Of a stretch of DNA of 53,868 nt, positions 15,882 to 44,872 are shown in pieces; the stretch's first letter is position 1; the number at the start of each line of letters is the position of its first letter. Both the position numbers and the translations under genes were made by a program. This DNA is from a virus (lineage: Duplodnaviria > Caudoviricetes): positions 1-53,868 of the IMG/VR virus record IMGVR_UViG_3300022200_008215; one strand, 5' to 3'. The notes below the pieces were generated by a model. It had not been told where the DNA came from and ran no database searches. It worked only from the letters and a program-made list of their open reading frames with translations.

Positions 15882-16460
15882 CTATGCTCTTAATATTTCG
15901 TTGATTATTGAATTGATTTTTGTGTACTTATTTTCAGGGAGTTTTCCTTCGTTTAAGGATACTGGGTTCATGAAAGCTCCCTGTGTGGAAGGATTGGAGA
16001 CGAAATCCCAGCAGACTAATTCAAAGTCTTGCTGTACCTCTAATGTTCCTTCGTTTGTTTGTTGTACTGATCCTGTACCCCTAGAAGAGATTCCTATAGT
16101 ATGTCCTGCTTTTATAATTTCTTTGACAATATTTCCTACAGGTGTATTGAGTAGTTCAATTCTTCCTTTTAGCTCATCACCATCCCACCACAGGTCTTTT
16201 ACTACGTGGGAAGCATTTTTTAAAGATACTACAGCTGATTCCGGATGATCTAATTCTCCAAAAGCATTTCCATTTTTTACGAACTCATTCATATACTTCT
16301 TACACTCTCTTTCAAGCAAGGTCTTGTCGTATACTCGTCCGTTTTGGTTTTTAGCTCCTGCTCTTTGTAAAACTCCTTCTACTTCGTATACCCCCGGCCT
16401 TTCTTTAGACTCCCTGAGTATTGATTTAAATGGTGTTATTTCTACTAATAGGTTGTTCAT
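15882..16460 (-). CDS. Prohead core protease (T4 gp21-like)
   Basis: KNQNGRVY, GELDHP, SH, GISSRGTGS, WDFVSNPS; start moved to MNNLLVE at 16460, next to the upstream stop. Confidence 0.95.
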   Translation of the reverse strand: MNNLLVEITPFKSILRESKERPGVYEVEGVLQRAGAKNQNGRVYDKTLLERECKKYMNEFVKNGNAFGELDHPESAVVSLKNASHVVKDLWWDGDELKGRIELLNTPVGNIVKEIIKAGHTIGISSRGTGSVQQTNEGTLEVQQDFELVCWDFVSNPSTQGAFMNPVSLNEGKLPENKYTKINSIINEILRA

Positions 16461-16461
16461 C

Positions 16462-17748
16462 TTAATTTTTTCTTTTAGTATATTTTGATTTCTTACCTTT
16501 ATTCTCATTAACCTTATACATAGAATTACCAGCTTGTGTAGGATCAATACCTAATTTTTCCAATTCTTCAGGAGATATTCTCTTAGACTTGGGAAGTTCT
16601 ATTGTCATATATTTACTTAATACTGGTTGTAAGTCTTTTTTAAATGCTACTGAAACGGCTGGAGCCATAAAGGAGCCAATATTTGCATAAATTGCTTCTA
16701 TTCCTTGTCTAGCATCTAAATGAGCTTTTTCTATTTTAGCAATATGTTCTGCTAATTCTGTAGCTCCTTTTCTAATACGTGCAGCTAAGTCTTCGTTATC
16801 TACGTTTTCGTAGTTAATAAACGATTCTAAGTTTTCTGCTTTAGCTTCTAGTAAGACTCTTTTTTCTTCTGTTAAAATTCCTCTGATTAATTTTTTAAAG
16901 CTCTCTTTTAAAGAGTTTTTAATTGCATTATCCCTAGCAGCTAGGTAATCGTTAGAGTCTATATCTCCGTCTTTATCTAAGTCTCTACCTTTCTTTTCTT
17001 CTAATCCCGCTTCGTCTAAGAAACTCTCATCTATTTCTTTTAGTTGATTTTTTAAGTAGTTAACTAGATCTGCTTTTGCAAAAGTAACCATTTCTGGTTC
17101 AGTCATAGGTCCGTTTTTCCATTCATTCCAAACTGCTTGGAGGTGTTTTACTACCTTATCAAGTTCGGGTCCCATAGATTCTACATACCCTCCTGTTTCG
17201 TAATCATTTTCTGTTACTACTTTACCACCTTTTATTTTAGCTCTTCTACCTTCTTGTAAAGCTTTTTTAACCAACTTATGGAGTGTTTCCCTTAATTCAG
17301 CTTTTTTCATTCCGTTAAAAGTATCTATTTCTTTTCCTTTTTTAGCTTCAACATACTTATCATGCTTATCAACATTTTTTGATTCTCCTGAAAGTAGGTT
17401 TAAGTAAAAGTTGAGATCTTTAGATAAGTTCTTAACTACTTTAGTTTTGGCTTTTTCTAATTCCTCATCGTTGGGCATCTCTAACGGTATGTTAATACCT
17501 TGTACTTGTAATTCGTAATCGACACCTCTCGATACTGCTTCTTCAGGAAATGAATCTTCAGATTTCATAGTCTCTTTTTTCTTAGTCTCATGAATCATTG
17601 ATCTATTCTTAAGAATAGTTACAGTATCCTCAAATCCATTGAAGTTACTTATTAGGTTAGGTAGCTCTAATCTAGCATCTCTAACAAACTGGGATTTAGA
17701 AAATTTGTTTTCTAAAATTGCGTTATATTTTTCTTGTAGTGTTCTCAT
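16462..17748 (-). CDS. Hypothetical prohead-associated protein
   Basis: 428 aa charged mosaic with DLDKDGDIDSNDYL (DxDxDG-type) motif. Confidence 0.6.
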   Translation of the reverse strand: MRTLQEKYNAILENKFSKSQFVRDARLELPNLISNFNGFEDTVTILKNRSMIHETKKKETMKSEDSFPEEAVSRGVDYELQVQGINIPLEMPNDEELEKAKTKVVKNLSKDLNFYLNLLSGESKNVDKHDKYVEAKKGKEIDTFNGMKKAELRETLHKLVKKALQEGRRAKIKGGKVVTENDYETGGYVESMGPELDKVVKHLQAVWNEWKNGPMTEPEMVTFAKADLVNYLKNQLKEIDESFLDEAGLEEKKGRDLDKDGDIDSNDYLAARDNAIKNSLKESFKKLIRGILTEEKRVLLEAKAENLESFINYENVDNEDLAARIRKGATELAEHIAKIEKAHLDARQGIEAIYANIGSFMAPAVSVAFKKDLQPVLSKYMTIELPKSKRISPEELEKLGIDPTQAGNSMYKVNENKGKKSKYTKRKN

Positions 17749-22554: not shown

Positions 22555-23772
22555 TTAGTAGTTAAGTTTTAATGTAAGTATTCCGTTGGCAATCCTCTTT
22601 ACAGTCAACCTACTTCTATCCTCTTCTTTCCGCATATCTAATATGACCGTTTTTCCTCTATCGTATATCATAAGATAGTCTATACCTTGCAGCCCTTTAC
22701 TTTTTATTTCGTTAAGATTTTTCTTTAGTGCAGCTGATCCTCCTACTACCCATGGATGTTCCATTAACTTCCTTAGTTCAAACTCTTGCTTCTTTCCTAA
22801 TTCTGGTGAGGTTTCTGAGGATATTATCATTCCTTGCTGGTCAACTTTTAGTGTATATTCTTGATCTTTCTTCACTAGGTACTTCTTCCCTGCTATTTTC
22901 ACCTCTACGTACTCTTTACCTATACTTTTATCATCTAACGGGAAATTATCAAGGAGTCTGGTAAGTTCGTCTAAGTACATTTCAGGTATAGATGTAAGCT
23001 TCTCTACTCCCGGCAGTATGAACCTAAATTCAGGTACTTTGTTAAACGGTGCTACTTGGTTCCTAAATGTTTCGTAGTTTTTCAAGAAAATACTGCCTAG
23101 TGTACTGCCTCCAGTTGCAAGTGATATTTCGTTTCCTGATGAAAAGTCTTTTACTTCTAGTACTTTTCCGTTACTGTCTGTTATATCTTTCTCATTAGCT
23201 CCTCCGATACGTGCTCCTTTTATCGAAACTAACGGTAACAGTTCTCCCTTTCCCCCTTTTGGAATTTTATAATCATGTAAAAGTTCATAAAAAGCTTCCA
23301 TATATACCTTTATATCTTTTATAAACTCCTCAATATTGGATGCTCTCCTGTAATTATCATTTTGCTTTACCAAGTTAATCTCTCCATCACTTACTCCTGC
23401 TCTTGATAGAACTTTTTCAACTTCTTCTTCTTCTAGAACCTTCTTGTCTACTGCATTTATATTAACATACTTTGTAGCCGCCTTAGACTTACCTTTTCCG
23501 GAGCCAACTACTTTGTACAGTTCTACGGAAGGGTTAGGTTCACCTGTTTCTCTGTTTACGTCTTTCGCTCTAACGTACACGTTATCCTCACCTTCCACTC
23601 TTTCATAATCTCCATGGTCTTGTGAAATAACCTCTTCTTCTAACTTTACGCCAAACTCGGTATAAATCTCTTTAAGTATTTTTGAGTCTTCAGCGTTCAT
23701 TATATCCGGGTACCCTTTCTCGCACCTGTAAGCCCATTCCTGTACTATTTTATCGATTACGTCTGTTTTCAA
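22555..23772 (-). CDS. Hypothetical protein with possible PD-(D/E)xK nuclease domain
   Basis: N-terminal EWAYRCEKGYPD module; GKGEL...KDI...LEVK pattern; TTG start. Confidence 0.5.
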   Translation of the reverse strand: MKTDVIDKIVQEWAYRCEKGYPDIMNAEDSKILKEIYTEFGVKLEEEVISQDHGDYERVEGEDNVYVRAKDVNRETGEPNPSVELYKVVGSGKGKSKAATKYVNINAVDKKVLEEEEVEKVLSRAGVSDGEINLVKQNDNYRRASNIEEFIKDIKVYMEAFYELLHDYKIPKGGKGELLPLVSIKGARIGGANEKDITDSNGKVLEVKDFSSGNEISLATGGSTLGSIFLKNYETFRNQVAPFNKVPEFRFILPGVEKLTSIPEMYLDELTRLLDNFPLDDKSIGKEYVEVKIAGKKYLVKKDQEYTLKVDQQGMIISSETSPELGKKQEFELRKLMEHPWVVGGSAALKKNLNEIKSKGLQGIDYLMIYDRGKTVILDMRKEEDRSRLTVKRIANGILTLKLNY

Positions 23773-23795
23773 AGTTCTGTTATTTTAAATAGACC

Positions 23796-23827
23796 TAAAT
23801 ATACGAAATATATATTTAATAGCCAAC
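23796..23827 (-). promoter_or_regulatory. Bacteroidota sigma70-type promoter
   Basis: GTTG-N20-TATATTTA. Confidence 0.65.
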
Positions 23828-23846
23828 TATTCTATCTCTCCGTACT

Positions 23847-24080
23847 CTATTCTAAGTTTGTATTTAACTCGTCTGTAAATAGTTTATAAGTATGCCTACC
23901 GTACTCATCTCTTAGAACTATTGCTACTGCTTTTGCAAAGTCTCCGTAACTCATACTGTCGTCAATACTAACTATTGCGCTGTTTATTTTAGCTGCTAGT
24001 TCTAGTACTTTTCTTGCCTCTGATGGCTTGTTTCCAAAGGGTAATTCTTCTCCCTCGTTTAAAATATCTATAAGTTTCAT
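23847..24080 (-). CDS. Small hypothetical protein (MKLIDILNE leader)
   Basis: 77 aa ORF in operon. Confidence 0.65.
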   Translation of the reverse strand: MKLIDILNEGEELPFGNKPSEARKVLELAAKINSAIVSIDDSMSYGDFAKAVAIVLRDEYGRHTYKLFTDELNTNLE

Positions 24081-24085
24081 ATATA

Positions 24086-24703
24086 CTATGCTTCTGGTTC
24101 TTCTCCTGCTTCAAAATCTATTTCTTCTCCTCCTAAATCAGCTCCTCCTGCTTCTTCTCCACCCTCTGGTGCTTCTGCTCCTGGCTCTGCAAATGCTGCA
24201 TCTTCTCCTCCTGGAAAATCTCCTGCTCCTCCTCCGGCTCCGGAACCTGTCTCTCCTTCTGCTCCAGGCTCTCCCTCTAACCCTGCTCCCGTTAAGGGCG
24301 CTTCTTGATATAGAACTCCTAATCTATCTAGAGCTTGTTGAAATTCACTAATCTTCCCTAATGCATAATTCTTTCCTTGGATTTGTGCATCGAAAGTCTT
24401 TCCTGTCCACTTAAGAGAAAAATCCTGCCCATTAGAGAGGTTGATTCTAAATGAAGTTGGTCGTGGTGATATCCAATCAACAGACTTAACGAACTCCTTG
24501 AAATCCTGTGTCATTAATTTAACTAGAGTTGCTTTTAGCGTTGGAAATTTTTCTAACATCGTATCCGTAGCATCTTCTAAAACTGTCTCCGGACCTGCAG
24601 TATCATCTCCTGTAAGGTCTTCTGGTGCTGGTTCTTTATCCTGTTCTAAAAGAACTTCGATGTATGCTTGTTCTATTAGTCTTTTGAGTTCGTTTATTCT
24701 CAT
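24086..24703 (-). CDS. Hypothetical protein with acidic Gly/Glu-rich tail
   Basis: 205 aa; PRPTSFRINLSNGQDF core. Confidence 0.7.
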   Translation of the reverse strand: MRINELKRLIEQAYIEVLLEQDKEPAPEDLTGDDTAGPETVLEDATDTMLEKFPTLKATLVKLMTQDFKEFVKSVDWISPRPTSFRINLSNGQDFSLKWTGKTFDAQIQGKNYALGKISEFQQALDRLGVLYQEAPLTGAGLEGEPGAEGETGSGAGGGAGDFPGGEDAAFAEPGAEAPEGGEEAGGADLGGEEIDFEAGEEPEA

Positions 24704-24706
24704 CTT

Positions 24707-26863
24707 TTACTTATTTTTGCAATGCTTTGGGTTACTTTTAGAAAGGTAAGGTTTTTTACATTCCGTTGATTTCTTGTGAACTCTTCCACATCTTCCACAA
24801 CAGGTTGCTTTTTCCTCGTTTAACTTCTGTTCTTTTTTTGAATCTCCTTCTAATAATTCTCCTCCTTCATAGGAAACTACTGTATTATCTGAATCATACC
24901 AATCTTCGACTCTATACCCACCATTAGGTAGTTTATTTACATGCTGTACATATCCTTGTTCGCTCTCTTTCCTAGCTAATTCTTTCATTTTACTTAAACT
25001 GTCTGAACTCTCTTCCTTAATTTCTTTATTTCTTTCTAATTTAACATCACCACTTGTAGTTAAAATCATTGATGCAGAGGTAGCACCATTTCCTTTATCA
25101 TATGATACAGAAACAAAATTTTCTACTGTTTTTGTTTTTGATTGTTTATTTTCTGCAAATAAGTCAAGATTTGTATCTACTACCTCTATATCATTTCCAC
25201 CAAAATCTTCTAATGCATCGTAGGCTGTTTCTTCTGAACTAAAGTAATAACTATCTGACCCGTTGTATATTACTTCTTTATAATATTTGTCATCTAAGAT
25301 CATTATAGCTTTTCTAGCATCTCTTACAGCTACCTTAATATAGTATACTCCTTTAGGGGCTTCGTTAATATTTCCAAGGTCTAACTTTATTCCTATTTTC
25401 TTTGCTGCTTTAAGAACTCCTGGTCTCAACCTGTCTTGATCAGACCTAGAAGCTTTTTTATATATATCAAATAAGGTAAGGTATCTCTGTCTTGGAGTCT
25501 CTTCACCAATTTCTGCTTCATTTATTTTTTTAGGTTTTTTCTCGGCTTTCAACATAGCTGTCATTTTTTTAATTTTTAGCTGTTGGTCCATTGGAAGTTG
25601 AGCTAATCTATCTTCTTCTTTTGCTTTAGCCCATTCTTCTTCAGACATACCCTCAGACATTTCTCTTTGAAGTTGATTAATGTAAGCATTAGCATCTCCT
25701 TCACTACCTTTAATGGTTTTTACTTTTTTACCATTTTTAAAAATATCGTATACACCTTTACTTAGGTATTTTTTAGTGTAAGTAGGTTTTTCTGGTTTGC
25801 TTTTCTCATATCCTTTTGGATCGTGAAACATTCCAATTTCATCTAAACTTACTATAGAATCGATTTCAGGTTCTTTAAGTTCAAAATCAAGGTAATGTTT
25901 AGCACCTACTATTGCAGTTTTAGCATTAGTAATTTTAGCCTGCCACCAAGCCGGAAAATCTACTTCACCAACACCCTCAAACTGATCTACCATTTTATAA
26001 AGTTCCATAGCATATTTTCCAATACGATATAGGTCTGCTTTTAACATATGTGGTTCGTTGTCTTCGTGTCCTAAATCTAGATCTTCATTTAAACCATAAG
26101 AACTAGCATTATCTATGAATCCTTGAAAGAATCCTTTTCTATATGCTTGGTGGTCTGGTTTGTTTTTAAATCTACCTTTAATTTTTTCAAATGCTTCTTC
26201 ACCAGCTTCATACCCCATTTCTTCAATATCAGCTAAGCCAATATTTTCTTCATATTCATCAGCTCCTACTTCGATATCTTTCGAATATTCCTGTTCGTTT
26301 AAAGAATTAAAGTATTTAACAAGATTATTTTTTACTAAATCTTTGTGAACTAGCGGCTCTCCAGATGGCTTAATTCCTACTTCGCCAATTTCTTTATCAA
26401 ATGAATCATCAACTAGGTGTAGAATACCTCCAGTTATGTAAAATGAAAACTCATCTTCAAAGTTGTTTTTGTACTCTATATAAATAGTAAATGAGTTAGA
26501 CATTATATCTTTTACTGTACCTCTTGCTACTTCATCTCCGACTTCTCTCAAAGCACTTACTAGTGTCTTTGCAATTTCCAGGGCTATAACTCTTGTCTCT
26601 TCGACTGAATATTCAATTTCCTGTTGCTCGCTTTTTAGCTTAACAGTCACATCAGGATTGTCTTTAGAGAATTCAGCTGCTTTTTTTTCATCTTCAAATT
26701 CTACAGCTTCTAGCTTTCTTTCTAAAGATTCTTTAAGTAGTTCTAATTTTTTTTTAGATATTAGCATACTTTGTTGTGAAAGTTTTCCTAACCCTCTGTC
26801 TTTAATTATATTTAGTGCAATTTTGCATTTTGATACACGTTCTTGAATTTCTTGATAAGTCAT
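24707..26863 (-). CDS. Large mosaic hypothetical protein, putative internal head polyprotein
   Basis: 718 aa of short modules separated by LNE/INE/LKE/LLE; C-terminal CCGRCGRVH. Confidence 0.65.
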   Translation of the reverse strand: MTYQEIQERVSKCKIALNIIKDRGLGKLSQQSMLISKKKLELLKESLERKLEAVEFEDEKKAAEFSKDNPDVTVKLKSEQQEIEYSVEETRVIALEIAKTLVSALREVGDEVARGTVKDIMSNSFTIYIEYKNNFEDEFSFYITGGILHLVDDSFDKEIGEVGIKPSGEPLVHKDLVKNNLVKYFNSLNEQEYSKDIEVGADEYEENIGLADIEEMGYEAGEEAFEKIKGRFKNKPDHQAYRKGFFQGFIDNASSYGLNEDLDLGHEDNEPHMLKADLYRIGKYAMELYKMVDQFEGVGEVDFPAWWQAKITNAKTAIVGAKHYLDFELKEPEIDSIVSLDEIGMFHDPKGYEKSKPEKPTYTKKYLSKGVYDIFKNGKKVKTIKGSEGDANAYINQLQREMSEGMSEEEWAKAKEEDRLAQLPMDQQLKIKKMTAMLKAEKKPKKINEAEIGEETPRQRYLTLFDIYKKASRSDQDRLRPGVLKAAKKIGIKLDLGNINEAPKGVYYIKVAVRDARKAIMILDDKYYKEVIYNGSDSYYFSSEETAYDALEDFGGNDIEVVDTNLDLFAENKQSKTKTVENFVSVSYDKGNGATSASMILTTSGDVKLERNKEIKEESSDSLSKMKELARKESEQGYVQHVNKLPNGGYRVEDWYDSDNTVVSYEGGELLEGDSKKEQKLNEEKATCCGRCGRVHKKSTECKKPYLSKSNPKHCKNK

Positions 26864-26900
26864 TGGTTTTGATATTTAAAAGCTATAATTATAAATATAC

Positions 26901-27479
26901 CTATTTTATGTGTTCTGATAGGTGTGTTATATACTGCTTGATATTTTTTAATATTTTCTTTTTTTCTGAGTTGTTAGATTTCCAATCTTCTATATCCCCC
27001 TGTTCTGTAATAAAAGTATCTTGTGAATTAACTGTCTCTAGAGCCCACTGTTCTATATCTTTTACAAAGAGTTTCATACTGCCTTGCATCATTCTTTGTT
27101 CATACTGCTCAAATAGTCCTGCTTTCCTTAAGTCGGCTTCGTACTCTACAGTACATGGATCAAAACAAAACCCATGAATTTTGTACATTTTTTGAGCTAA
27201 GTGATGTTTCATCGGACCTCCGCAGTTAGGGCACCTTAGTGGTATACGAACAGCTTTTTTAGCTGCATCTAATTTTGTAACATTTTGTTTAATTCCGTTT
27301 TTAATTGTCCAATTTTTACCTGATTCTTCCCAAATATCACCCTCCTTGTATTTGCCTATTATTTTTTTGTAACCTGTTTGAGCTTTTGTTTTAGCTGTAT
27401 AGTCTTTATTAACTATATTCCTGACTCTCTGTACATCTCTTTGTTTAAATTCTTTCTTTAGTAACGATTCCTTACTCAT
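26901..27479 (-). CDS. Hypothetical Zn-ribbon protein
   Basis: EGDIWEESGKNWTIKNGIKQN, CPNC...CFDPC. Confidence 0.7.
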   Translation of the reverse strand: MSKESLLKKEFKQRDVQRVRNIVNKDYTAKTKAQTGYKKIIGKYKEGDIWEESGKNWTIKNGIKQNVTKLDAAKKAVRIPLRCPNCGGPMKHHLAQKMYKIHGFCFDPCTVEYEADLRKAGLFEQYEQRMMQGSMKLFVKDIEQWALETVNSQDTFITEQGDIEDWKSNNSEKKKILKNIKQYITHLSEHIK

Positions 27480-28005
27480 ACTTTAATTCTTTTAATTTTT
27501 CTATAACATAATCTACATTTCCGTCTTTACATCTTATAGCAATTCCGCCTTTCGATATCCATTCTTCAATATTTGATTTTTTATCATCTATTAGAATTGA
27601 ATTCTCGTTAGCATATCTCTGCTTATCTTTTGAGTAAGCAAATATCACTTTTGGAGATGAAGGTATATTTTGTCTAACCCATAGGTTTTTTCCTAGTCTT
27701 GAGTTATTATGTCTTGAAGGAGATGTCAAAATTTGCGGGCTGTAAGGTTCTATAAAATTCCACAGTCTCTGTCCTTGAGGCATCCAGGGCATTTCTGACC
27801 AGAATTTGATACCTACTTCTCCGTCTATGATATTCCAAAAAGCTGCGGATCCAAATTCATCTTCATACTCTTTTGGATTGCTGTATCCTGTGTAGTGCTC
27901 AAACCTTGTTTCGAAGTCAGTTAATACTCCGTCCATATCACAGTAGATATTATACGGAGGCATAGTTTCTGATTTTTCTAATAACAAATCTTTTAGTTTT
28001 CCCAT
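27472..28005 (-). CDS. HAD-superfamily 5'(3')-deoxyribonucleotidase-like protein
   Basis: IYCDMDGVLTDF, ILTSP, K, ILIDD, W..KGG. Confidence 0.88.
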   Translation of the reverse strand: MGKLKDLLLEKSETMPPYNIYCDMDGVLTDFETRFEHYTGYSNPKEYEDEFGSAAFWNIIDGEVGIKFWSEMPWMPQGQRLWNFIEPYSPQILTSPSRHNNSRLGKNLWVRQNIPSSPKVIFAYSKDKQRYANENSILIDDKKSNIEEWISKGGIAIRCKDGNVDYVIEKLKELKYE

Positions 28006-28013
28006 ACCTTTTT

Positions 28014-30659
28014 TTACAGCAGTTGTCTTATTCCTAATGCTGGTAGTCTTTTACGCCATAGGGTAAGTATTTTTTCTTTTTGACTTGGTGTTATATCTTG
28101 TGAGTCTATATACCTGTTCACTACATCAGCAAAGGGTTTCTTTTCTTTTTTAGCCCTTAAGAGTAGTCCTTGTAAATTTGCATCTACCTCTTTTTCAAGC
28201 TCTAAATATTGATTAGCTCTTGATTTTTTTGATTTTATCCAAGCTCTTCTTTCAAGATCGTCTGCCATTCCTTTATTGGGGTTAGCAGTATCGCTTCCTA
28301 TGTTATGTGTTAGGTGTTCTATTTCATGTCTAACAATATCCTTTAATGTCATAGAAATCTCTTCCCATATTTCTGGTAGGAGTTGTTCATCTACTTCTAC
28401 ATCTATTCTAATGAAATCTCCTTCGTTGTCTGTACCTGCTCCTGTTGTCTCAATAACATCCATTGTCCCCGTATCGAATGTTAATTCTATTGTAGCTTCT
28501 ACATCGAAATTTGCTCCTAAACCTTCATAGTTGTCTTTATATTGAAACCCGTCTTCTCCTTCATCTACGGCTTGTTTCCATGCTTTGAAGATATTTGAGG
28601 ATATTGTATTTGTAAGTTTATCGTATTTACCTTCTGCCATCACTTCTTTTTTTTTACCATTTTTAATCTCATCTTCCCAGTTCCTGAAAGTTATATTCCC
28701 TTCTAAGTATGCTTCTTTTTCTATCTCTATTAAGTTACTATCTTCATTTGTATTAGTAGTTCCTACGGAACCTAATCTACCTTCTAAATTCTGTTTATGA
28801 TGAATCATCTCATGTGTAAAAGATCTCATTACATCTTTAGGGTGTCTTCCTTCTACGTAGAGAACTACTTCTTTCTTATTAGGGTCGTAGAATGCTGTAC
28901 GTCCAAAGAAATCACTTGATTCTGCTATATCTCTCCTAATTTTGACTTCAGGTAAGGGAGTTACTTTCATCTTTTGATCTATCATATACTCTAAAATAGA
29001 GCCCATATATGGTGTGTAATCAAAGCCAACTCTTTCTCCTTCTTTTTTATTCCGAACTGTTATACTATCTCCATTGAATACTATATCGTAGTACTCGTCC
29101 CCGAGTAGGGTAAGTAGTTTCTTATATACGGTAACTAGCATTGCTCTATCTTTTGACGCAATAACGCTTTTTGGAGCTATTGCTGTTCCGGAAGAACCTT
29201 CTTTAACTAATTGATTAGTGTTAAAAAGTTCGTGTAGTGTTTTATCTAAAGCTTCTTGCATTTGTATCTCTTTTTCTGATGGTGCACGCATTGCTGCTAT
29301 GTTTATACTTCTTTCTTTATCTGAGTTGTTTATTTCCTGTGGTGTCCATTCCCCGCTTTTTAAGTACCTGACAGAATTTCTTATTGAGTTAGCAGAAAAT
29401 TTACTGTCCTCTTCTCCTTCTCTTGGTAACTCTAATATTTCAACTGTTGGATATTTTTCTTTATTTTTTATAAAATAGTCAAACCTTTTTGCTTCTTCGG
29501 GAAGAGTTCCTGTTATGATTTTAGAATAGCTATTTTGATTATCATCTACAAAAGTATAAATGTCTCTTATGGGGGTTACTTCTGATAGGATTATATCAAC
29601 CGGTATCGGAAGGTATTTGGCATAAATTTCCCAAATACTCTTAGATTGTTCAGCGCTAATTCTTACTCCTTCTCGTACTTTAGGTCCTATAAATATAACC
29701 AACCTGTCTACTTTATCTGCTAAAAATTTTGCATTATTAAAATGAGCTTTGTGAGGTGGTTTAAATCCTCCGGCGTATAGTCCTACTGTTTTACCTTGCT
29801 CATCCTCTAGTATAGTATTTACTGTCTGTAGTGCTTTTTCTTTCCCTGCTCCTTTAGGTGTCCCCACTTCCCCTGATTTTACTGATACCATACTATTAAA
29901 AACACCTTTAATTCTTTCTTTTGATCTTGGATTTTTTACTTTAGATTTAATATCTTGTAGTAAATCTTCGAATGTTCCGTCTATGTTATAGTTTTTAAAA
30001 AGTTCTCTTATTAGTCCCCAATTTGTTGTACTCCATAGATCTTCTCTAGCAACTGTTTTGAAATCTTTTAATTTTACTTTCCTTAAAGTTAGTTTATTTG
30101 AACTTAAATTGAACTCTAATTCTTCATCTGGTGTAAGCTGTGGTACATCATTTATGCTTAATCTCTTGAGCAGTTCAACTGGGTTTTCTTCTAGTAGAAT
30201 AACTTTTACTAGTCCTAATAACAGTCCTTGTTTTTCGGCTGGTAGATCTAAGAAGCTATTTTTAAATGCATGTTCTTCGTCTGATAGTGATATGATATTA
30301 TCTACTTGTATGTATTTATCTTGCTGACCTGTAATTGGAAAGAGGATAGTAATTATTTCTCCAGAGTTGTAGTATTTTTTACCTGAATATTTTTCACTCT
30401 TAAAAGGAACTATAACGCTATCAGGTTCCGAAGTTACTGTTTTAATTATTCTCTGTTTAACTTCTTTCTTATCTTCTCCTTCGAATTGAACAATTAAGTC
30501 GAGGTCTCCAAAATCCGGCTTACTTCCTGCTTTAACACTTCCAGATAGTGATGCTTTTTTGAATCCTGGTATCTTTTCTAGAACATCTTTTACGTACTTA
30601 TCGAAAGTACGTTTAACATCTTTCTTTTCTATTCTCTGACCTCCGGCTACACCTGACAT
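28014..30659 (-). CDS. Fusion: Pol-beta-type nucleotidyltransferase + HIGH-type (cytidylyltransferase-like) domain + two HExxH metallopeptidase-like domains
   Basis: SGSVKAGSKPDFGDLD and IQVD; GGFKPPHKAH; HEMIHH..E.EAY; HEIEH..EVDA. Confidence 0.75.
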   Translation of the reverse strand: MSGVAGGQRIEKKDVKRTFDKYVKDVLEKIPGFKKASLSGSVKAGSKPDFGDLDLIVQFEGEDKKEVKQRIIKTVTSEPDSVIVPFKSEKYSGKKYYNSGEIITILFPITGQQDKYIQVDNIISLSDEEHAFKNSFLDLPAEKQGLLLGLVKVILLEENPVELLKRLSINDVPQLTPDEELEFNLSSNKLTLRKVKLKDFKTVAREDLWSTTNWGLIRELFKNYNIDGTFEDLLQDIKSKVKNPRSKERIKGVFNSMVSVKSGEVGTPKGAGKEKALQTVNTILEDEQGKTVGLYAGGFKPPHKAHFNNAKFLADKVDRLVIFIGPKVREGVRISAEQSKSIWEIYAKYLPIPVDIILSEVTPIRDIYTFVDDNQNSYSKIITGTLPEEAKRFDYFIKNKEKYPTVEILELPREGEEDSKFSANSIRNSVRYLKSGEWTPQEINNSDKERSINIAAMRAPSEKEIQMQEALDKTLHELFNTNQLVKEGSSGTAIAPKSVIASKDRAMLVTVYKKLLTLLGDEYYDIVFNGDSITVRNKKEGERVGFDYTPYMGSILEYMIDQKMKVTPLPEVKIRRDIAESSDFFGRTAFYDPNKKEVVLYVEGRHPKDVMRSFTHEMIHHKQNLEGRLGSVGTTNTNEDSNLIEIEKEAYLEGNITFRNWEDEIKNGKKKEVMAEGKYDKLTNTISSNIFKAWKQAVDEGEDGFQYKDNYEGLGANFDVEATIELTFDTGTMDVIETTGAGTDNEGDFIRIDVEVDEQLLPEIWEEISMTLKDIVRHEIEHLTHNIGSDTANPNKGMADDLERRAWIKSKKSRANQYLELEKEVDANLQGLLLRAKKEKKPFADVVNRYIDSQDITPSQKEKILTLWRKRLPALGIRQLL

Positions 30660-30660
30660 T

Positions 30661-31572
30661 TTATACTGTTTTATATTTAGTTAAATTCGATTCATCCGGT
30701 AGGAATTTACCTTTAAGTGTTAATCTGTCTTGGTTTTCTATCCAATACGATTGTAAATCTTCGGGAATATCTGCTCTAGTACTGTCTAATATTTTTAAGT
30801 ACCTGTCGTATACACCATTCAAATCCTCTGTAGATAATCCCGCTTCTAATGTCTCTATTAATTTAAAGTAATCTCCAGCAGTCTCTTTATCTAACTTAAT
30901 ATTATATAACTTATTTAAAAGTTCTATAGCCTGTTGTGGACTATTAGCTACTATCTCTTGAGTTTCTTTATCTTTAACTCCATAATTGTGTGAAAAGGTA
31001 TATCCCTTATGTGAAAATAGAGCAACAATAAGTTGAGTTCTATGTAATCCTTTTACATTTCCTGAATAGGTAGTGGAGTGGTATGCAAAGGAAAGCCAGT
31101 CTACGTCTCCCACGTTTATATCTATCTGTACGTTATCACCTACTTCTTCTTTATTTTCATCAAACTGTGGAAATAAGAGGAATAATGCTCCTGCTCCTGA
31201 GCCTTTCACATCGGCTAAGATATCGGTATTACTTTCCTCAATTTTTTGAGCTACAGAAACTATAACAGCTCTCTTCATTAGTTGATCATCAGACGATGTT
31301 CTAGCTCGTTTTTTGAAACCATCGAATAGTTTATTAATATGGTCTTGATCTAATCCCCAATCGTTAATATCGTCAAAAGATTTTCCTGATAGGGCTAAGT
31401 CAATATCCCCTGAGTAGTCTTTTTTCCCTACAGATCCTAAAGTTTTCATCTCTCTAAAAAATGGTTCTGCTTTAGGAAAAATTGCTTTAAATTGCTTGAA
31501 AAATTCAAACAATGTAGGTTTTATATTCTCTTTTTTAATTGAAGCAGTATTATTAAAAACGTTACCTCCCAT
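30661..31572 (-). CDS. Pol-beta-superfamily nucleotidyltransferase
   Basis: LGSVGKKDYSGDIDL, VQID, KGLHR. Confidence 0.75.
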   Translation of the reverse strand: MGGNVFNNTASIKKENIKPTLFEFFKQFKAIFPKAEPFFREMKTLGSVGKKDYSGDIDLALSGKSFDDINDWGLDQDHINKLFDGFKKRARTSSDDQLMKRAVIVSVAQKIEESNTDILADVKGSGAGALFLLFPQFDENKEEVGDNVQIDINVGDVDWLSFAYHSTTYSGNVKGLHRTQLIVALFSHKGYTFSHNYGVKDKETQEIVANSPQQAIELLNKLYNIKLDKETAGDYFKLIETLEAGLSTEDLNGVYDRYLKILDSTRADIPEDLQSYWIENQDRLTLKGKFLPDESNLTKYKTV

Positions 31573-31592
31573 ACTAATTTATTTTATTGACC

Positions 31593-31641
31593 TAAATATA
31601 TGAATTTATTTTAGATCTACCAACTATTTTATTTATAAATA
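31593..31641 (-). promoter_or_regulatory. Dual promoter (TATTTATA plus Bacteroidota-type) for the nucleotidyltransferase operon
   Basis: TATTTATA at 31634-31641; GTTG-N20-TATATTTA at 31593-31624. Confidence 0.65.
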
Positions 31642-31644
31642 GTA

Positions 31645-43913: not shown

Positions 43914-44280
43914 TTGCTACCTCCTTTCTTACTTTACAGTTATTAAAGTGCCATCTTAACATAGCATTTTTTTGCCCTTCTTCTAAACAGTGGGGGCATT
44001 TTGCCCGTAAGTGATTGCCTGTAAAGTTATCACCTCTGTTTAATGCTGATTTTCTCATTTTTTCTCTAGATTCTTCACTTCTAGGTGGGGCAGCTAATCT
44101 AGCTCGTCTAATGGCTTGTTTATGTTTAGCTGTAAGTAAAACGAGATTGAAGGTGTCGTCGGAGCCTCCTAGACTTTTTGGGATAATGTGATGACTCTCA
44201 TAATATGTAGAATCATTTCTGTGTCTTCTAAGAGATTGTCTTCCAGAGCAGAGCGCTCTGCAGTGTTCCATGTAGTTCAT
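43906..44280 (-). pseudogene. HNH homing endonuclease remnant, apparently internally deleted, with NUMOD3-like tail
   Basis: YYESHHIIPKSLGGSDDTFNLVLLTA runs straight into KHKQAIR..SEESREKMR..CPHC; expected REHxxxH segment absent. Confidence 0.6.
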
Positions 44281-44291
44281 ATTTATTTAAA

Positions 44292-44344
44292 TTATGGTTG
44301 GATACACCGAATGTGCGGTGCCCACTTCCCTTGAGGACCTATAA
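44292..44344 (-). ncRNA. Candidate structured cis-regulatory RNA
   Basis: GC-rich island in an AT-rich gap just downstream of TATTTATT; foldable by eye as a three-way junction. Confidence 0.45.
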
Positions 44345-44395
44345 TACTTTAATAAATATTAGCTTTTTTATATTTCTCTAATTTAACCAGTCTTT

Positions 44396-44872
44396 TTACT
44401 CAAAAAAATCTTTTCTATAAAATTTACCTAGGATGTTATCATTGATGTAGTTGTCTCTATTTTCTAATACCTCTTTTGTAAACAGGTACTTACATTCGAA
44501 GTATGTCAATCTTTTCTTATCTTGAACGTATTTTAATATTTCTCTTTTAAAGTCTTCTTTTTTACCTTCTTTTACTAATTCTAAGATTTCTTTTTGAGAT
44601 CCGTGATAAGTTTTCCAATCCGACTCTGTTATTACTTTCTTTTTTAAAGGTGTTCTCCCCCCTACTCCTTTGCTTTTTCTCTCCTCTTTGAGAGTTTCTA
44701 ACTCTTTTTTACCTAACCTCTTACTTCTTTCAAAATAAAGTACTTTTTTACCTATGTACTTTTTCCCTGTCGGTATGTGAGTTACTTCGTAAATAAACCC
44801 GTAAGTATCTTCTGGTATACTTTCTATGTTAGTTACAGGATTTCCTTGGTATATCCATAATTTTTCTGTCAT
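44396..44872 (-). CDS. GIY-YIG-like nuclease-domain protein
   Basis: YGFIYEVT..TGKKYIGKK, WKTYHGS, FKREIL, YFE, YINDNI. Confidence 0.75.
   Translation of the reverse strand: MTEKLWIYQGNPVTNIESIPEDTYGFIYEVTHIPTGKKYIGKKVLYFERSKRLGKKELETLKEERKSKGVGGRTPLKKKVITESDWKTYHGSQKEILELVKEGKKEDFKREILKYVQDKKRLTYFECKYLFTKEVLENRDNYINDNILGKFYRKDFFE

What the first reader, a model, noticed from the sequence alone, without database searches (positions are those of the whole stretch)
27472..31572. Operon with two Pol-beta-type nucleotidyltransferases, a HIGH-motif transferase, two HExxH domains and a HAD phosphatase
Seen: adjacent related NTase domains (GS..K...GD.D and Q.D), the second fused to a GGFKPPHKAH domain and two zincin-like motifs, with ILE, VKE and MAE linkers between domains, followed by a HAD nucleotidase; both promoter types lie upstream. 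Known: such domains act in tRNA/RNA repair, NAD or CoA-type adenylylation, nucleotide signalling and protein NMPylation. Inference: an uncharacterised nucleotide-modifying counter-defence or host take-over module, possibly virion-delivered.
Basis: partly seen in the sequence, partly recalled or inferred. Interest (0 to 1): 0.72.

Follow-up and report, generated by a model that had tools for sequence, protein, structure and literature searches.

The report
Phage enzyme cargo with protease-cut junctions
A Flavobacterium-type phage carries genes for two small polymerase-like enzymes, an adenylyl-transferase, two zinc-protease-like domains and a nucleotidase whose boundaries look like capsid-protease cutting sites, so they are probably packed into the virus head and injected with the DNA.

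Summary
Window 27472-31572 (minus strand) has three tightly packed genes. ORF1 (303 aa) has a family-X (Pol beta/ASFV PolX-like) palm-thumb fold. ORF2 (881 aa) has four domains: D1, a distant paralogue of ORF1; D2, a HIGH-motif NMNAT/PPAT-like transferase; D3, a Wss1/SprT-like zincin; and D4, a second HExxH domain whose fold is unresolved. The third gene is an NT5C-type HAD nucleotidase. The catalytic residues are invariant in relatives.

The operon lies in the late structural region, about 5 kb upstream of terminase, portal, a T4-type prohead protease (Peptidase_S77) and the capsid protein.

The main new result concerns the domain boundaries. In relatives, every boundary sits directly after [LIVM]-x-Glu, the T4 gp21 cleavage motif: 106 of 107 internal ORF1-like starts, 46 of 47 D1 starts and 69 of 70 D4 starts. 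Many relatives also carry 9-25-residue N-terminal leaders ending in that motif, like T4 capsid-targeting sequences.

Best reading (about 0.55): a capsid-packaged, protease-processed, injected enzyme set, which would be a new variant of T4 internal or "polyvalent" proteins. Substrates are unknown, and packaging of this phage's leaderless ORF1 and ORF2 is inferred, not shown.

The parts
31573..31644 (-). Intergenic spacer upstream of ORF1 with promoter-like AT-rich motifs (TATAAATA at 31630-31637; sigma-70-like 9/12 match at 31623-31595)
   Evidence: Sequence read; scans. The same 8-mer or its complement lies in many intergenic spacers of the structural genes. Function as a promoter is inferred only.
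30661..31572 (-). ORF1, 303 aa: minimal family-X-polymerase-like nucleotidyltransferase (palm + thumb + C-terminal helical extension). Starts M-GGNVF.
   Evidence: AF2 model pLDDT 90.8, pTM 0.85. Foldseek pdb: 189 hits at E<=1e-3, and the 50 rows listed are all Pol beta/lambda/mu. VIA: ASFV PolX Z 9.1 (164 aligned of 176, rmsd 3.9), Pol beta Z 9.1, then a drop to TUTases at Z<=6.9. Invariant G46 S47 K51 D56 D58 D151. No Pfam or PHROG hit.
29805..30659 (-). ORF2 domain D1 (aa 1-285): second Pol-beta/PolX-palm-like nucleotidyltransferase. Starts M-SGVAGG and ends at ILE285.
   Evidence: Invariant G40 D52 D54 Q118 D120. Homologues hit Pfam DNA_pol_B_palm in 5 of 22 (best 3.3e-6), NTP_transf_2 in 4 of 22 and Polbeta in 2 of 22. 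Distant paralogue of ORF1. Not folded here.
29199..29804 (-). ORF2 domain D2 (aa 286-487): HIGH-signature (GGFKPPHKAH; FSANSIR) adenylyl/cytidylyl-transferase-like Rossmann domain. Ends at VKE487.
   Evidence: Profile A8 against PDB: archaeal NMNAT MJ0541 8.3e-6, NadD 7.4e-5, PPAT 2.7e-4. Invariant G, F, K, P and the last His of the motif. Homologue P0262 hits Pfam CTP_transf_like at 29.3 bits.
28632..29198 (-). ORF2 domain D3 (aa 488-676): zincin-like (gluzincin-type) HExxH domain with HEMIH 616-620 and candidate third ligand E647/E649. Ends at MAE676.
   Evidence: AF2 model pLDDT 86.9. VIA wide: Wss1 Z 8.5 (103 aligned, rmsd 3.0), ERAP1 8.1, lugdulysin 8.1, SPRTN 7.5, ArdC 6.7, minigluzincins. 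The listed rows all span model 57-186 and the great majority are zincin-type metalloenzymes. Invariant H, E, H, E, E.
28017..28631 (-). ORF2 domain D4 (aa 677-881): second HExxH domain (HEIEH 778-782, invariant E824). Alpha/beta with the motif helix after a sheet. Present or absent among relatives.
   Evidence: Model secondary structure. Invariant R777 H778 E779 H782 E824. Similar to D3 only over the 16-column motif stretch. No fold-search rows cover it. Atlas leads only: LPD23 0.87, SprT-like 0.87.
27472..28005 (-). HAD-superfamily NT5C-like 5'(3')-(deoxy)nucleotidase, 177 aa, with a 10-residue N-terminal leader MGKLKDLLLE
   Evidence: phrog_2643 2.3e-26. Pfam NT5C 17.3 bits, below its 24.8 cut-off. 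D23 D25 K106 D140 D141 conserved. Adjacent to the core gene in 67 and fused in 2 of 72 assessable loci. A leader containing h-x-E is present in 68 of 68 homologues.
15882..16547 (-). T4-type prohead (head maturation) protease, the candidate enzyme that cuts the junctions
   Evidence: Pfam Peptidase_S77 E 1.2e-36, over cut-off, at 15948-16403. phrog_207 4.5e-55. Also present in 5 of 5 near-complete related genomes.
22555..27479 (-). Four further ORFs between HAD and terminase (p192 26901-27479, p718 24707-26863, p205 24086-24703, p405 22555-23772): possible additional head-internal proteins
   Evidence: No family hits. Syntenic in relatives. p718, p205 and p405 start with short leaders containing h-x-E. 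Their membership of the cargo set is inferred only.

Best explanation
ORF1, ORF2 and probably the HAD nucleotidase are late-expressed capsid cargo.

Proposed course of events:
1. The proteins are made with the head proteins and incorporated into the prohead.
2. ORF2 is cut by the phage's T4-type prohead protease after Glu285, Glu487 and Glu676. This gives four separate enzymes: a PolX-like NTase, a HIGH-type adenylyltransferase and two zincin-like domains.
3. The products are ejected into the cell with the DNA, like T4 Alt and the internal proteins, and like the 'polyvalent proteins' of other phages.
4. Once inside, the two PolX-like enzymes most likely add nucleotides to nucleic-acid 3'-OH ends (gap filling or tailing). 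D2 adenylylates a phosphorylated small molecule of the NMN or phosphopantetheine class. The zincins cut proteins. The HAD enzyme dephosphorylates (d)NMPs.

Shown here: the domain identities, the conserved catalytic residues, the presence of the protease gene, the junction motif rule, the leaders in relatives, the synteny and the fusions.

Inferred: packaging, cleavage, ejection and all substrates.
For: 1. Position. All genes in the window are on one strand. The operon lies between tail-fibre genes and terminase, portal, protease and MCP. That order is kept in IMG/VR relatives.
2. Protease. A T4-type prohead protease is encoded in the window and in 5 of 5 related near-complete genomes. T4 gp21 cuts after L/I-x-E, and a 10-residue N-terminal CTS suffices for packaging (PMC9026906, passages read).
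3. Junction rule.
- Of 121 longer proteins holding an ORF1-like domain, the domain starts right after Met in 13 and internally in 107. Of the 107, 106 are directly preceded by [LIVM]-x-E, with a variable middle residue.
- D1-like starts: 55 after Met and 47 internal, 46 of these after [LIVM]-x-E.
- D4 starts: 70 of 70 after Glu, 69 with [LIVM] at P3.
- The background frequency of the tripeptide is 0.018 per position.
- Standalone D1 proteins end at or near this site.
4. Leaders.
- 48 of the 121 have 9-25-residue N-terminal leaders ending in h-x-E directly before GGNVF.
- 39 of 60 D2-first representatives have an N-terminal stretch of 18 or more residues before GGFKPP (about a 14-residue leader), and all 39 contain h-x-E. 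Its Glu lies mostly 10-12 residues before GGFKPP, the same spacing as ILE285 in ORF2. Leaderless forms start 6-9 residues before GGFKPP.
- HAD homologues: 68 of 68 have such a leader.
5. Domain shuffling. Representatives show combinatorial shuffling of these domains, with ORF1-D1, ORF1-D2-D3 and D2-D3-D4-HAD fusions. This fits the polyvalent-protein pattern, in which zincin domains are the hub (PMC5512222, passages read).
6. MCP. The capsid protein has LLE-G at residues 6-9 and 32-35, as expected for a phage using this protease specificity.
Against: - The window's own ORF1 and ORF2 have no N-terminal leader (M-GGNVF, M-SGVAGG), so their route into the prohead is unexplained.
- No virion proteome exists for this phage or for its only cultured relatives, the immuto phages (paper search listed none).
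- ORF2 contains 23 [LIVM]-x-E tripeptides, so three at linkers in this one protein alone would not be significant.
- The conserved Glu before D4 could be part of the fold.
- The sequences counted are related, so the counts are not independent events.
- The junctions could instead be cut by the protein's own zincin domains, or not be cut at all.
- The flanking primase and exonuclease genes suggest a replication or repair setting.
Confidence: 0.55

Rival explanations
1. These are cytoplasmic DNA-repair or nucleotide-metabolism enzymes of the replication module and are not packaged. The PolX-like enzymes fill gaps in the (hypermodified) phage DNA. D2 and the HAD nucleotidase adjust nucleotide or cofactor pools. 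The h-x-E junctions are linkers that are either uncut or cut by the protein's own zincin domains.
For: - The operon directly follows a DnaG-type primase and a PD-(D/E)XK exonuclease, and this adjacency holds in 46 of 49 loci.
- ORF1's nearest folds are gap-filling family-X polymerases.
- The nearest cultured relative replaces all G by fdPreQ1 (PMC10516641, passages read), which could call for dedicated repair or pool enzymes.
- In relatives lacking ORF1 and D1, the same slot holds a Zeta/AAA_33-type P-loop kinase, a typical nucleotide-metabolism fold.
- Zincin self-processing is the explanation favoured for polyvalent proteins in PMC5512222.
Against: - This reading does not explain why internal domain starts are preceded by the prohead-protease motif in 106 of 107 and 46 of 47 cases.
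- It does not explain why many relatives carry short removable-looking N-terminal leaders.
- It does not explain why the genes sit in the late structural block rather than with the DNA polymerase.
- No ligase, AP endonuclease or lyase domain was seen next to the operon.
Confidence: 0.25
2. This is an NAD+ salvage or regeneration module, as the GenBank annotation of the immuto homologue implies ('NMN adenylyltransferase, NadR'). D2 makes NAD+ from NMN to counter NAD-depleting defence systems, and the HAD enzyme and neighbouring kinases feed the pathway.
For: - D2's best solved relatives are NMNAT and NaMNAT.
- Sources name homologues NMNAT.
- A P-loop kinase sits next to the D2 gene in many relatives, which recalls the kinase-plus-NMNAT arrangement of NadR (recalled, not tested).
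Against: - The match to NMNAT covers mainly the generic HxGH motif region, and PPAT scores nearly as well.
- No Nampt-type (PF04095) gene and no NAD-dependent ligase (PF01653) was found in 5 of 5 related near-complete genomes.
- The kinase hits Zeta_toxin and AAA_33, which are general P-loop kinase families and not specific to NadR's riboside kinase.
- This reading gives no role to the two PolX-like enzymes or the two zincins.
Confidence: 0.1
3. This is an RNA/tRNA repair kit. The Pol-beta-type enzymes rebuild tRNA 3' ends (CCA-type addition). The HAD enzyme, together with the P-loop kinase of relatives, heals ends as T4 polynucleotide kinase-phosphatase does.
For: - The HAD N-terminus weakly hits the PHROG 'polynucleotide kinase' (7.6e-5).
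- Relatives have an AAA_33/KTI12-like kinase in the slot.
- Terminal RNA nucleotidyltransferases share the palm (Z 5-7).
Against: - The top nine structural neighbours of ORF1 are all DNA polymerases X with palm plus thumb aligned. RNA-specific NTases align over the palm only, about 100 residues.
- The HAD's best family is the deoxyribonucleotidase one, at 2.3e-26.
- No RNA ligase was seen in the window.
Confidence: 0.07

Closest known systems
T4 internal head proteins and Alt (capsid-targeting sequence plus gp21 processing)
   Same: The window holds a T4-type prohead protease. The L/I-x-E motif lies at junctions. Relatives have 9-25-residue N-terminal leaders ending in that motif. Enzymes as cargo has a precedent, since Alt is an ADP-ribosyltransferase (PMC9026906).
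   Different: The cargo here is a multi-enzyme polyprotein with internal sites rather than single proteins with terminal propeptides. This phage's ORF1 and ORF2 lack a leader. There is no sequence similarity to Alt or the IPs. The enzymatic domains are different.
Polyvalent proteins of phages and conjugative elements (Iyer et al. 2017, PMC5512222)
   Same: Several unrelated enzymatic domains lie in one polypeptide, zincin-like HExxH domains act as a recurrent hub, the domains are shuffled combinatorially, and the phage versions lie near packaging genes and are predicted to be injected.
   Different: That paper's Pol-beta NTases are minimal MNT-like domains of firmicute elements. The words cytidylyltransferase and NMNAT do not occur in its main text. 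It proposes zincin self-processing, whereas here the junctions match the prohead-protease motif. No Pfam LPD or other polyvalent hallmark family hits ORF2.
Minimal family-X DNA polymerases (ASFV Pol X; Pol beta palm-thumb)
   Same: ORF1 aligns to ASFV PolX over 164 of its 176 residues (Z 9.1) and to the Pol beta, lambda, mu, TdT and Thermus PolX palm plus thumb. It has the DxD...D triad and a GS-plus-Lys motif. Like ASFV PolX, it has no 8-kDa or fingers domains.
   Different: There is no sequence-level family hit. Identity is 12-16%. ORF1 has an extra C-terminal helical domain (about 240-303) and a strictly conserved free N-terminus, GG. Polymerase activity is untested. A phage polymerase review names no phage example of family X in the three passages that mention the family (PMC8775771).
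NMNAT/PPAT (HIGH-signature nucleotidylyltransferases)
   Same: D2 has the (H/T)xxH and SxxxR motifs, and its profile matches MJ0541 NMNAT, NadD and PPAT.
   Different: The match is largely confined to the motif-bearing N-terminal third. Substrate-specific residues were not assessed. No salvage partners were found.
Wss1/SPRTN/ArdC-type minimal zincins
   Same: The D3 fold matches them (Z 8.5, 7.5 and 6.7), and HExxH plus a downstream Glu is conserved.
   Different: Z values are near the background ceiling for this tool. No DNA-binding module was identified. D4 is not placed.

Membership tests
Family X DNA polymerase (ORF1) | Palm + thumb fold of Pol beta / ASFV PolX | tested here: met
   Foldseek: 189 hits at E<=1e-3, best 1.8e-5, prob 1.00, and the 50 rows listed are all PolX. 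VIA: ASFV PolX Z 9.1, rmsd 3.9, 164 aligned. The top 9 rows are all family X.
Family X DNA polymerase (ORF1) | Three catalytic carboxylates (DxD + D) and a GS/basic triphosphate-binding motif | tested here: met
   D56, D58, D151, G46, S47 and K51 are invariant in 25 sequences.
Family X DNA polymerase (ORF1) | Match to the curated sequence models (Pfam DNA_pol_B_palm / thumb) | tested here: not met
   No Pfam family at E<=0.01 for ORF1. Only D1 homologues hit DNA_pol_B_palm, 5 of 22.
Family X DNA polymerase (ORF1) | 8-kDa lyase and HhH fingers domains (full-length cellular PolX) | tested here: not met
   The alignments start at Pol beta residue 142 and cover only palm-thumb. ORF1 begins directly with the palm. 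ASFV PolX lacks these domains too.
Family X DNA polymerase (ORF1) | Template-directed DNA synthesis | not testable with these tools
   Needs an enzyme assay.
HIGH-signature nucleotidylyltransferase, NMNAT/PPAT class (D2) | (H/T)xGH-type motif and ISxTxxR-type motif | tested here: met
   GGFKPPHKAH at 297-306, with the last His invariant and the first H or T. FSANSIR at 421-427, with Arg nearly invariant.
HIGH-signature nucleotidylyltransferase, NMNAT/PPAT class (D2) | Significant similarity to solved members | tested here: met
   Profile A8: MJ0541 NMNAT 8.3e-6, NadD 7.4e-5, PPAT 2.7e-4. The single sequence gives only E 0.46.
HIGH-signature nucleotidylyltransferase, NMNAT/PPAT class (D2) | NMN specificity, or genomic context of NAD salvage | tested here: not met
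   No PF04095 (Nampt/NAPRTase) and no PF01653 in 5 of 5 related genomes. Specificity residues were not analysed.
Zincin-like metallopeptidase (D3) | HExxH on a helix after a small sheet, plus a downstream Glu ligand | tested here: met
   H616, E617, H620, E647 and E649 are invariant. The fold matches Wss1 (Z 8.5), ERAP1 (8.1), SPRTN (7.5), ArdC (6.7) and minigluzincins.
Zincin-like metallopeptidase (D4) | Zincin fold | tested here: inconclusive
   HEIEH and E824 are invariant, and the model has sheet-helix order. No fold-search row covers D4. hhalign to D3 matches only 16 columns.
NT5C-type HAD 5'(3')-deoxyribonucleotidase | HAD motifs I-IV (DxDxV, Lys, DD) | tested here: met
   D23, D25, K106, D140 and D141 are conserved at 95% or more in 68 sequences.
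NT5C-type HAD 5'(3')-deoxyribonucleotidase | Curated family threshold | tested here: inconclusive
   phrog_2643 at 2.3e-26, but Pfam NT5C scores 17.3 bits against a 24.8 cut-off. No PDB sequence hit.
T4-type capsid-targeted, gp21-processed internal proteins | Phage encodes a Peptidase_S77 prohead protease | tested here: met
   (E 1.2e-36), (5 of 5 relatives).
T4-type capsid-targeted, gp21-processed internal proteins | L/I-x-E sites at the points where mature chains begin | tested here: met
   106 of 107, 46 of 47 and 69 of 70 internal domain starts. ORF2 has ILE285, VKE487 and MAE676.
T4-type capsid-targeted, gp21-processed internal proteins | N-terminal capsid-targeting leader on the protein itself | tested here: not met
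   ORF1 and ORF2 of the window start M-GG and M-SG. Leaders occur in relatives (48 of 121; 39 of 60) and on the HAD protein.
T4-type capsid-targeted, gp21-processed internal proteins | Presence in virions and ejection | not testable with these tools
   No proteome was found (listing).
Polyvalent proteins (PMC5512222) | Two or more disparate catalytic domains in one polypeptide, with a zincin hub, in a phage next to packaging genes | tested here: met
Polyvalent proteins (PMC5512222) | Hit to the family's described domains (LPD, MuF, ArdC-N etc.) | tested here: not met
   No Pfam hit for ORF2. LPD23 appears only as an Atlas lead at 0.87.

The most novel reading that the evidence does not exclude
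The two PolX-like enzymes are injected, capsid-borne repair polymerases whose strictly conserved free N-terminus acts as a catalytic amine. That N-terminus is Gly-Gly in ORF1 and Ser-Gly in D1, and it is exposed either by Met removal or by prohead-protease cleavage. The amine would serve as an AP/dRP-lyase nucleophile, replacing the missing 8-kDa lyase domain of cellular PolX. Together with D2, the zincins and the nucleotidase, they would form a minimal 'first-minute' kit that repairs or finishes the hypermodified (7-deazaguanine) genome on entry. This would be the first virion-delivered DNA polymerase X system in phages.
Probability: 0.1. Interest if true: 0.85.

Novelty: new variant of a known kind. 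Interest (0 to 1): 0.68.

Why it matters
If correct, a very large and almost wholly uncultivated clade of T4-like aquatic phages loads its capsids with a shuffled set of enzymes, using the T4 capsid-targeting and prohead-protease system. The clade is represented by at least 579 IMG/VR stretches and by thousands of metagenomic proteins.

This would extend the idea of injected effectors to family-X-type polymerases and HIGH-type adenylyltransferases. It would give a sequence rule, [LIVM]-x-E before each domain, for finding such cargo in metagenomes. It would also explain why these genes have escaped all family libraries.

The hypothesis is directly testable, because one relative, Flavobacterium phage immuto, is in culture.

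Tried and rejected
- Direct Pfam and PHROG scans of ORF1 and ORF2 gave nothing.
- Single-sequence searches of solved structures gave only E 0.46 to MJ0541 NMNAT, and noise.
- BLASTP of ORF1 against ORF2 was not significant.
- My first profile comparison was an artefact, because alignment A3 contained ORF1-D1 fusion proteins. I discarded it and repeated without them.
- Profile A2 against PDB reported the HIGH domain carried by some D1 homologues, not D1 itself. D1 alone reached only E 0.71 to a putative NTase.
- Foldseek against PDB found nothing at E<=1e-3 for the D3-D4 model.
- The NAD-salvage context search was negative.
- HMMs of ORF1 and D1-D4 found nothing in the ORFs that fill the slot in relatives lacking ORF1 and D1. 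Of 9 slot ORFs scanned, 6 proved to be Zeta/AAA_33-type kinases and 3 had no hit.
- The HAD protein had no PDB sequence hit.
- tblastn of ORF1, ORF2 and D2-D4 against 50,697 phage records found only the four immuto records.
- CD-NTase, OAS and TUTase readings of ORF1 were considered. These align at Z<=6.9 over the palm only. CCA-adding enzymes were not among the 50 rows, which does not exclude them.
- I did not run complex prediction, because I make no binding claim.
- I did not search sequencing runs.
- Supplements of the papers were not seen. Supplementary Data S1 of PMC10516641 might list these genes.


Full report
**What is there.** The window is a fragment of a T4-like myophage (IMG/VR record, CheckV completeness 33%). 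Its only cultured relatives are the Flavobacterium phages vB_FspM_immuto, with ORF1 at 82% and ORF2 at 57% identity and gene order conserved. All ORFs of the window lie on the minus strand.

The finding covers three genes:
- ORF1, 30661-31572, 303 aa.
- ORF2, 28014-30659, 881 aa.
- A HAD protein, 27472-28005, 177 aa.

Neither ORF1 nor ORF2 hits any Pfam or PHROG family. The HAD protein hits the PHROG 5'-3' deoxyribonucleotidase family (2.3e-26) and, below threshold, Pfam NT5C.

**Size of the families.**
- ORF2 has 1117 relatives at E<=1e-3 among 8000 scored candidates.
- ORF1 has 1813 among 2971. The 119 listed relatives are about 80% identical to ORF1, so it is much more conserved than ORF2, whose listed relatives are about 60% identical.
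- An exhaustive search of 1.84 billion cluster representatives with ORF2 gave 2927 hits, 506 of them at 1e-30 or better.
- None carries an informative name apart from occasional 'NMN adenylyltransferase' or 'predicted nucleotidyltransferase'.

**Domain anatomy.** Mapping four ORF2 segments and ORF1 onto the 150 best representatives shows free recombination of the parts:
- D2-D3-D4 cores with variable inserts.
- D1 alone.
- D1-D2(-D3)(-D4).
- ORF1-D1 fusions.
- ORF1-D2-D3.
- The order D2-D4-D3.
- D4-less forms.

A fusion with an NT5C domain occurs in P0291, and D2-D3-D4-HAD fusions occur in loci L090 and L113.

**ORF1.** An AlphaFold model built on 25 sequences (pLDDT 90.8, pTM 0.85) matches family-X DNA polymerases.
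- Foldseek gave 189 PDB hits at E<=1e-3. The 50 rows listed are all Pol beta, lambda or mu (best 1.8e-5, prob 1.00).
- VIA-align ranked ASFV PolX first (Z 9.1, rmsd 3.9, 164 of 176 residues aligned). Next came Pol beta (9.1), Pol lambda (8.9), TdT (8.8), Thermus PolX (8.7) and Leishmania Pol beta (8.5).
- After these there is a step down to RNA uridylyltransferases, which align over the palm only (Z<=6.9, about 100 residues).
- G46, S47, K51, D56, D58, Q149, D151 and a KGLHRTQL stretch in the thumb are invariant or nearly so.
- In BFVD the fold recurs in uncultured Caudovirales, in Agrobacterium phage Atu_ph07, and in giant-virus proteins named family-X or DNA-directed DNA polymerases.

ORF1 is therefore a minimal PolX-like nucleotidyltransferase with an extra C-terminal helical part. 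It fails the curated sequence models, and polymerase activity is untested.

**D1 (ORF2 1-285).** The carboxylates D52, D54 and D120 and the GS motif are invariant. Of 22 homologues, 5 hit Pfam DNA_pol_B_palm, 4 hit NTP_transf_2 and 2 hit Polbeta. Profile-profile comparison links D1 to ORF1 over the catalytic core (E 2.3e-5, prob 76%, 142 columns; unrelated-domain controls prob 0.3 and 1.7). The tool's smaller alignments gave E 5e-4. I did not fold D1.

**D2 (286-487).** The profile matches archaeal NMNAT MJ0541 (8.3e-6), NadD (7.4e-5) and PPAT (2.7e-4), mostly over the HxGH region. The Gly, Phe, Lys, Pro and last His of GGFKPPHKAH are invariant, and the first His alternates with Thr. D2 is a HIGH-signature adenylyl/cytidylyl-transferase, but its substrate cannot be read off. 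Five related near-complete genomes have neither a Nampt-type gene nor an NAD-dependent ligase, so the 'NadR/NMNAT' label is unsupported by context.

**D3 and D4.** The model of residues 485-881 (pLDDT 86.9) gave no Foldseek hit at E<=1e-3. The exhaustive VIA search placed model residues 57-186 (D3) among zincins: Wss1 Z 8.5, ERAP1 8.1, lugdulysin 8.1, SPRTN 7.5, ArdC 6.7 and the minigluzincins. Most of the 50 rows are zinc metallopeptidases or other zincin-fold proteins such as YbeY. These Z values are close to the tool's background ceiling. The argument therefore rests on the uniformity of the list together with the invariant HExxH and downstream Glu residues.

D4 has its own invariant RHEIEH and E824 and a sheet-then-helix layout. 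No row covers it, and it resembles D3 only over 16 motif columns. Atlas leads (LPD23, SprT-like; 0.87) are below the level to be trusted. D4 exists as a standalone protein of about 208 aa elsewhere and is absent from many relatives.

**Context.** Reading in the direction of transcription, the order is:
- tail fibres and spikes;
- small ORFs;
- DnaG-type primase and PD-(D/E)XK exonuclease;
- ORF1, ORF2, HAD;
- four unknown ORFs;
- terminase large subunit and portal;
- a T4-type prohead protease (Peptidase_S77, E 1.2e-36);
- scaffold-like acidic proteins and the major capsid protein.

The operon thus sits inside the late structural block.

Synteny in the 49 IMG/VR loci found with ORF1:
- ORF1 is followed by a D1-bearing ORF in 42, and the contig ends in the other 7.
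- The exonuclease precedes ORF1 in 46.
- HAD follows ORF2 in 32 of 33 assessable loci.

Synteny in the 77 loci found with D3-D4:
- HAD follows the core gene in 67 and is fused to it in 2.
- HAD is missing in 3, and 5 are too short to assess.

In most of these more distant loci ORF1 and D1 are absent. Their place between the exonuclease and the D2 gene holds other ORFs. Of 9 such ORFs scanned, 6 are P-loop kinases of the Zeta_toxin/AAA_33 type and 3 gave no hit.

**The junction rule.** T4 gp21 cuts after L/I-x-E. The first 10 residues of T4 IPIII are a capsid-targeting sequence whose residues 4 and 7 serve targeting and whose residues 8 and 10 serve processing (PMC9026906, passages read).

In ORF2 the three linkers are ILE285|D, VKE487|G and MAE676|G. 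Alone this means little, because ORF2 holds 23 [LIVM]-x-E tripeptides. The family-wide pattern is different:
- **ORF1-like domain.** In 121 longer proteins it begins with GG(N/H)hF directly after Met in 13 and internally in 107. One protein lacks the motif. Of the 107 internal starts, 106 are directly preceded by [LIVM]-x-E, with about 30 different tripeptides.
- **D1.** It begins SGxxG after Met in 55 proteins and internally in 47, of which 46 follow [LIVM]-x-E.
- **D4.** It begins G(K/R)YD after Glu in 70 of 70, with [LIVM] at P3 in 69.
- **End of D1.** Standalone D1 proteins end at or next to the L-x-E that closes D1 in fusions.
- **Background.** The tripeptide occurs at 0.018 per position.

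The mature N-terminus of each domain is therefore the same whether it is produced by Met removal or lies behind an h-x-E.

**Leaders.**
- Of the 121 proteins, 48 have only a short N-terminal peptide of 9-25 residues before GGNVF. It always ends in h-x-E and is often 9-10 residues long with an aromatic or aliphatic residue at position 4.
- Of 60 D2-first representatives, 39 have 18 or more residues before GGFKPP (about a 14-residue leader of the form M-N-x-L-x-K-x-L-x-x-x-h-L-x-E). All 39 contain h-x-E, with the Glu mostly 10-12 residues before GGFKPP. Leaderless forms begin 6-9 residues before GGFKPP. ILE285 of ORF2 lies 11 residues before it.
- In some D1-D2 fusions the same leader-like peptide persists between the domains, bracketed by two sites.
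- All 68 HAD homologues have an N-terminal extension with a conserved h-x-(D/E)-L-L-E element.
- The capsid protein has LLE-G at residues 6-9 and 32-35.
- The prohead protease is present in 5 of 5 further near-complete genomes of the clade, including genomes whose D2 proteins carry leaders.

**Interpretation.** The most economical reading is that this clade uses the T4 mechanism, a leader plus prohead-protease trimming, to load and release a variable set of enzymes. ORF1, ORF2 and HAD would be this phage's version of that set.

This fits the 'polyvalent protein' concept: disparate enzymes in one chain, zincin domains as the hub, injection with the DNA (PMC5512222, passages read). It differs in three ways:
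- the domain content, since PolX-like and HIGH-type transferases are not described there;
- the likely processing enzyme;
- the taxon.

What the enzymes do after entry is open. By fold, the PolX-like pair should act on nucleic-acid 3' ends. The cultured relative has all G replaced by fdPreQ1 (PMC10516641, passages read), which makes a role in finishing or repairing the incoming genome conceivable. Counter-defence roles are equally possible.

**Weak points.**
- ORF1 and ORF2 of this phage have no leader.
- No virion proteome exists.
- The counted sequences are related, so the counts overstate independent evidence.
- The Glu before D4 may be structural.
- Self-cleavage by the zincins, or no cleavage at all, cannot be excluded.

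I therefore put 0.55 on packaging and processing, 0.25 on a purely cytoplasmic repair or nucleotide role, 0.10 on NAD salvage and 0.07 on RNA repair.

**Novelty.** The genes are annotated in GenBank only as hypothetical protein, 'NMN adenylyltransferase' and 5' nucleotidase.
- My searches for the phage names listed 10 of 16 papers. I read passages of two of them. One deals with DNA modification (PMC10516641) and one with DNA polymerases (PMC11348598), and no passage I read concerns these genes.
- A phage-polymerase review names no phage example of family X in the three passages that mention the family (PMC8775771, passages read).
- I did not find the junction rule or the PolX-like cargo in print in the searches. 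These searches cover only open-access text.

I rate the finding a new variant of a known kind.

Noticed in passing
window 22555-27479 (p192, p718, p205, p405): The four unknown ORFs between HAD and terminase are syntenic across the clade. Three of them begin with short leaders containing h-x-E: p718 M-T-Y-Q-E-I-Q-E, p205 with LIE at 9-11 and LLE at 18-20, and p405 homologues M-N-h-h-D-K-h-h-x-E-W. They may be further head-internal proteins. p718 is very variable in length (about 170 to 1300 aa in relatives).
   Followed up: partly
L062-L128, between the exonuclease and the D2 gene (e.g. L063:5465-6247, L113:5803-6603): In relatives that lack ORF1 and D1, the same slot holds other ORFs of about 250-330 aa. 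Of 9 scanned, 6 hit Pfam Zeta_toxin/AAA_33 P-loop kinases (best 5.8e-17) and 3 gave no hit. The slot is sometimes shared with a second unknown ORF of about 290-320 aa.
   Followed up: partly
window-wide, e.g. 7875, 11497, 18878, 22442, 26890, 31634, 38424, 49612, 53775 (+ strand): TATAAATA (read as TATTTATA on the coding strand) occurs 23 times against 11.4 expected. Most copies lie in the short spacers just upstream of minus-strand genes, including portal-side, terminase, p718 and ORF1. It is possibly part of the phage's late promoter or a start-region signal.
   Followed up: partly
P0022, P0039 (about 1080 aa) and P0096 (1083 aa), relatives of ORF2: Extra domains of about 170 aa are inserted exactly at the D2|D3 linker (P0022, P0039) or at the D1|D2 and D3|D4 linkers (P0096). 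This shows that the linkers are the recombination points for new modules. The inserts were not identified.
   Followed up: no
P0436 (900 aa); BFVD A0A6J5TD12 (1096 aa): ORF1-like domains also occur fused to ankyrin repeats (precomputed Pfam) and in a protein named ParB/Sulfiredoxin, a domain typical of polyvalent proteins.
   Followed up: no
window 15882-16547: The prohead protease ORF as listed starts at a TTG with about 29 odd N-terminal residues. The family match begins near residue 20-30, so the true start is probably the ATG at residue 30 (MNNLLVE...), which would itself give a short LVE-containing N-terminus.
   Followed up: no
window 43906-44872: A homing-endonuclease-like ORF (phrog_655) lies next to a 158-aa ORF that hits the PHROG 'NAD synthetase' (phrog_447, 3.5e-34). 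The latter name looks doubtful for so small a protein.
   Followed up: no
L051 (253,664-bp contig with terminal repeats): A much larger phage carries ORF1 plus a D1-D2 protein without the primase, exonuclease or HAD neighbours, so the pair can move independently of the rest of the block.
   Followed up: no
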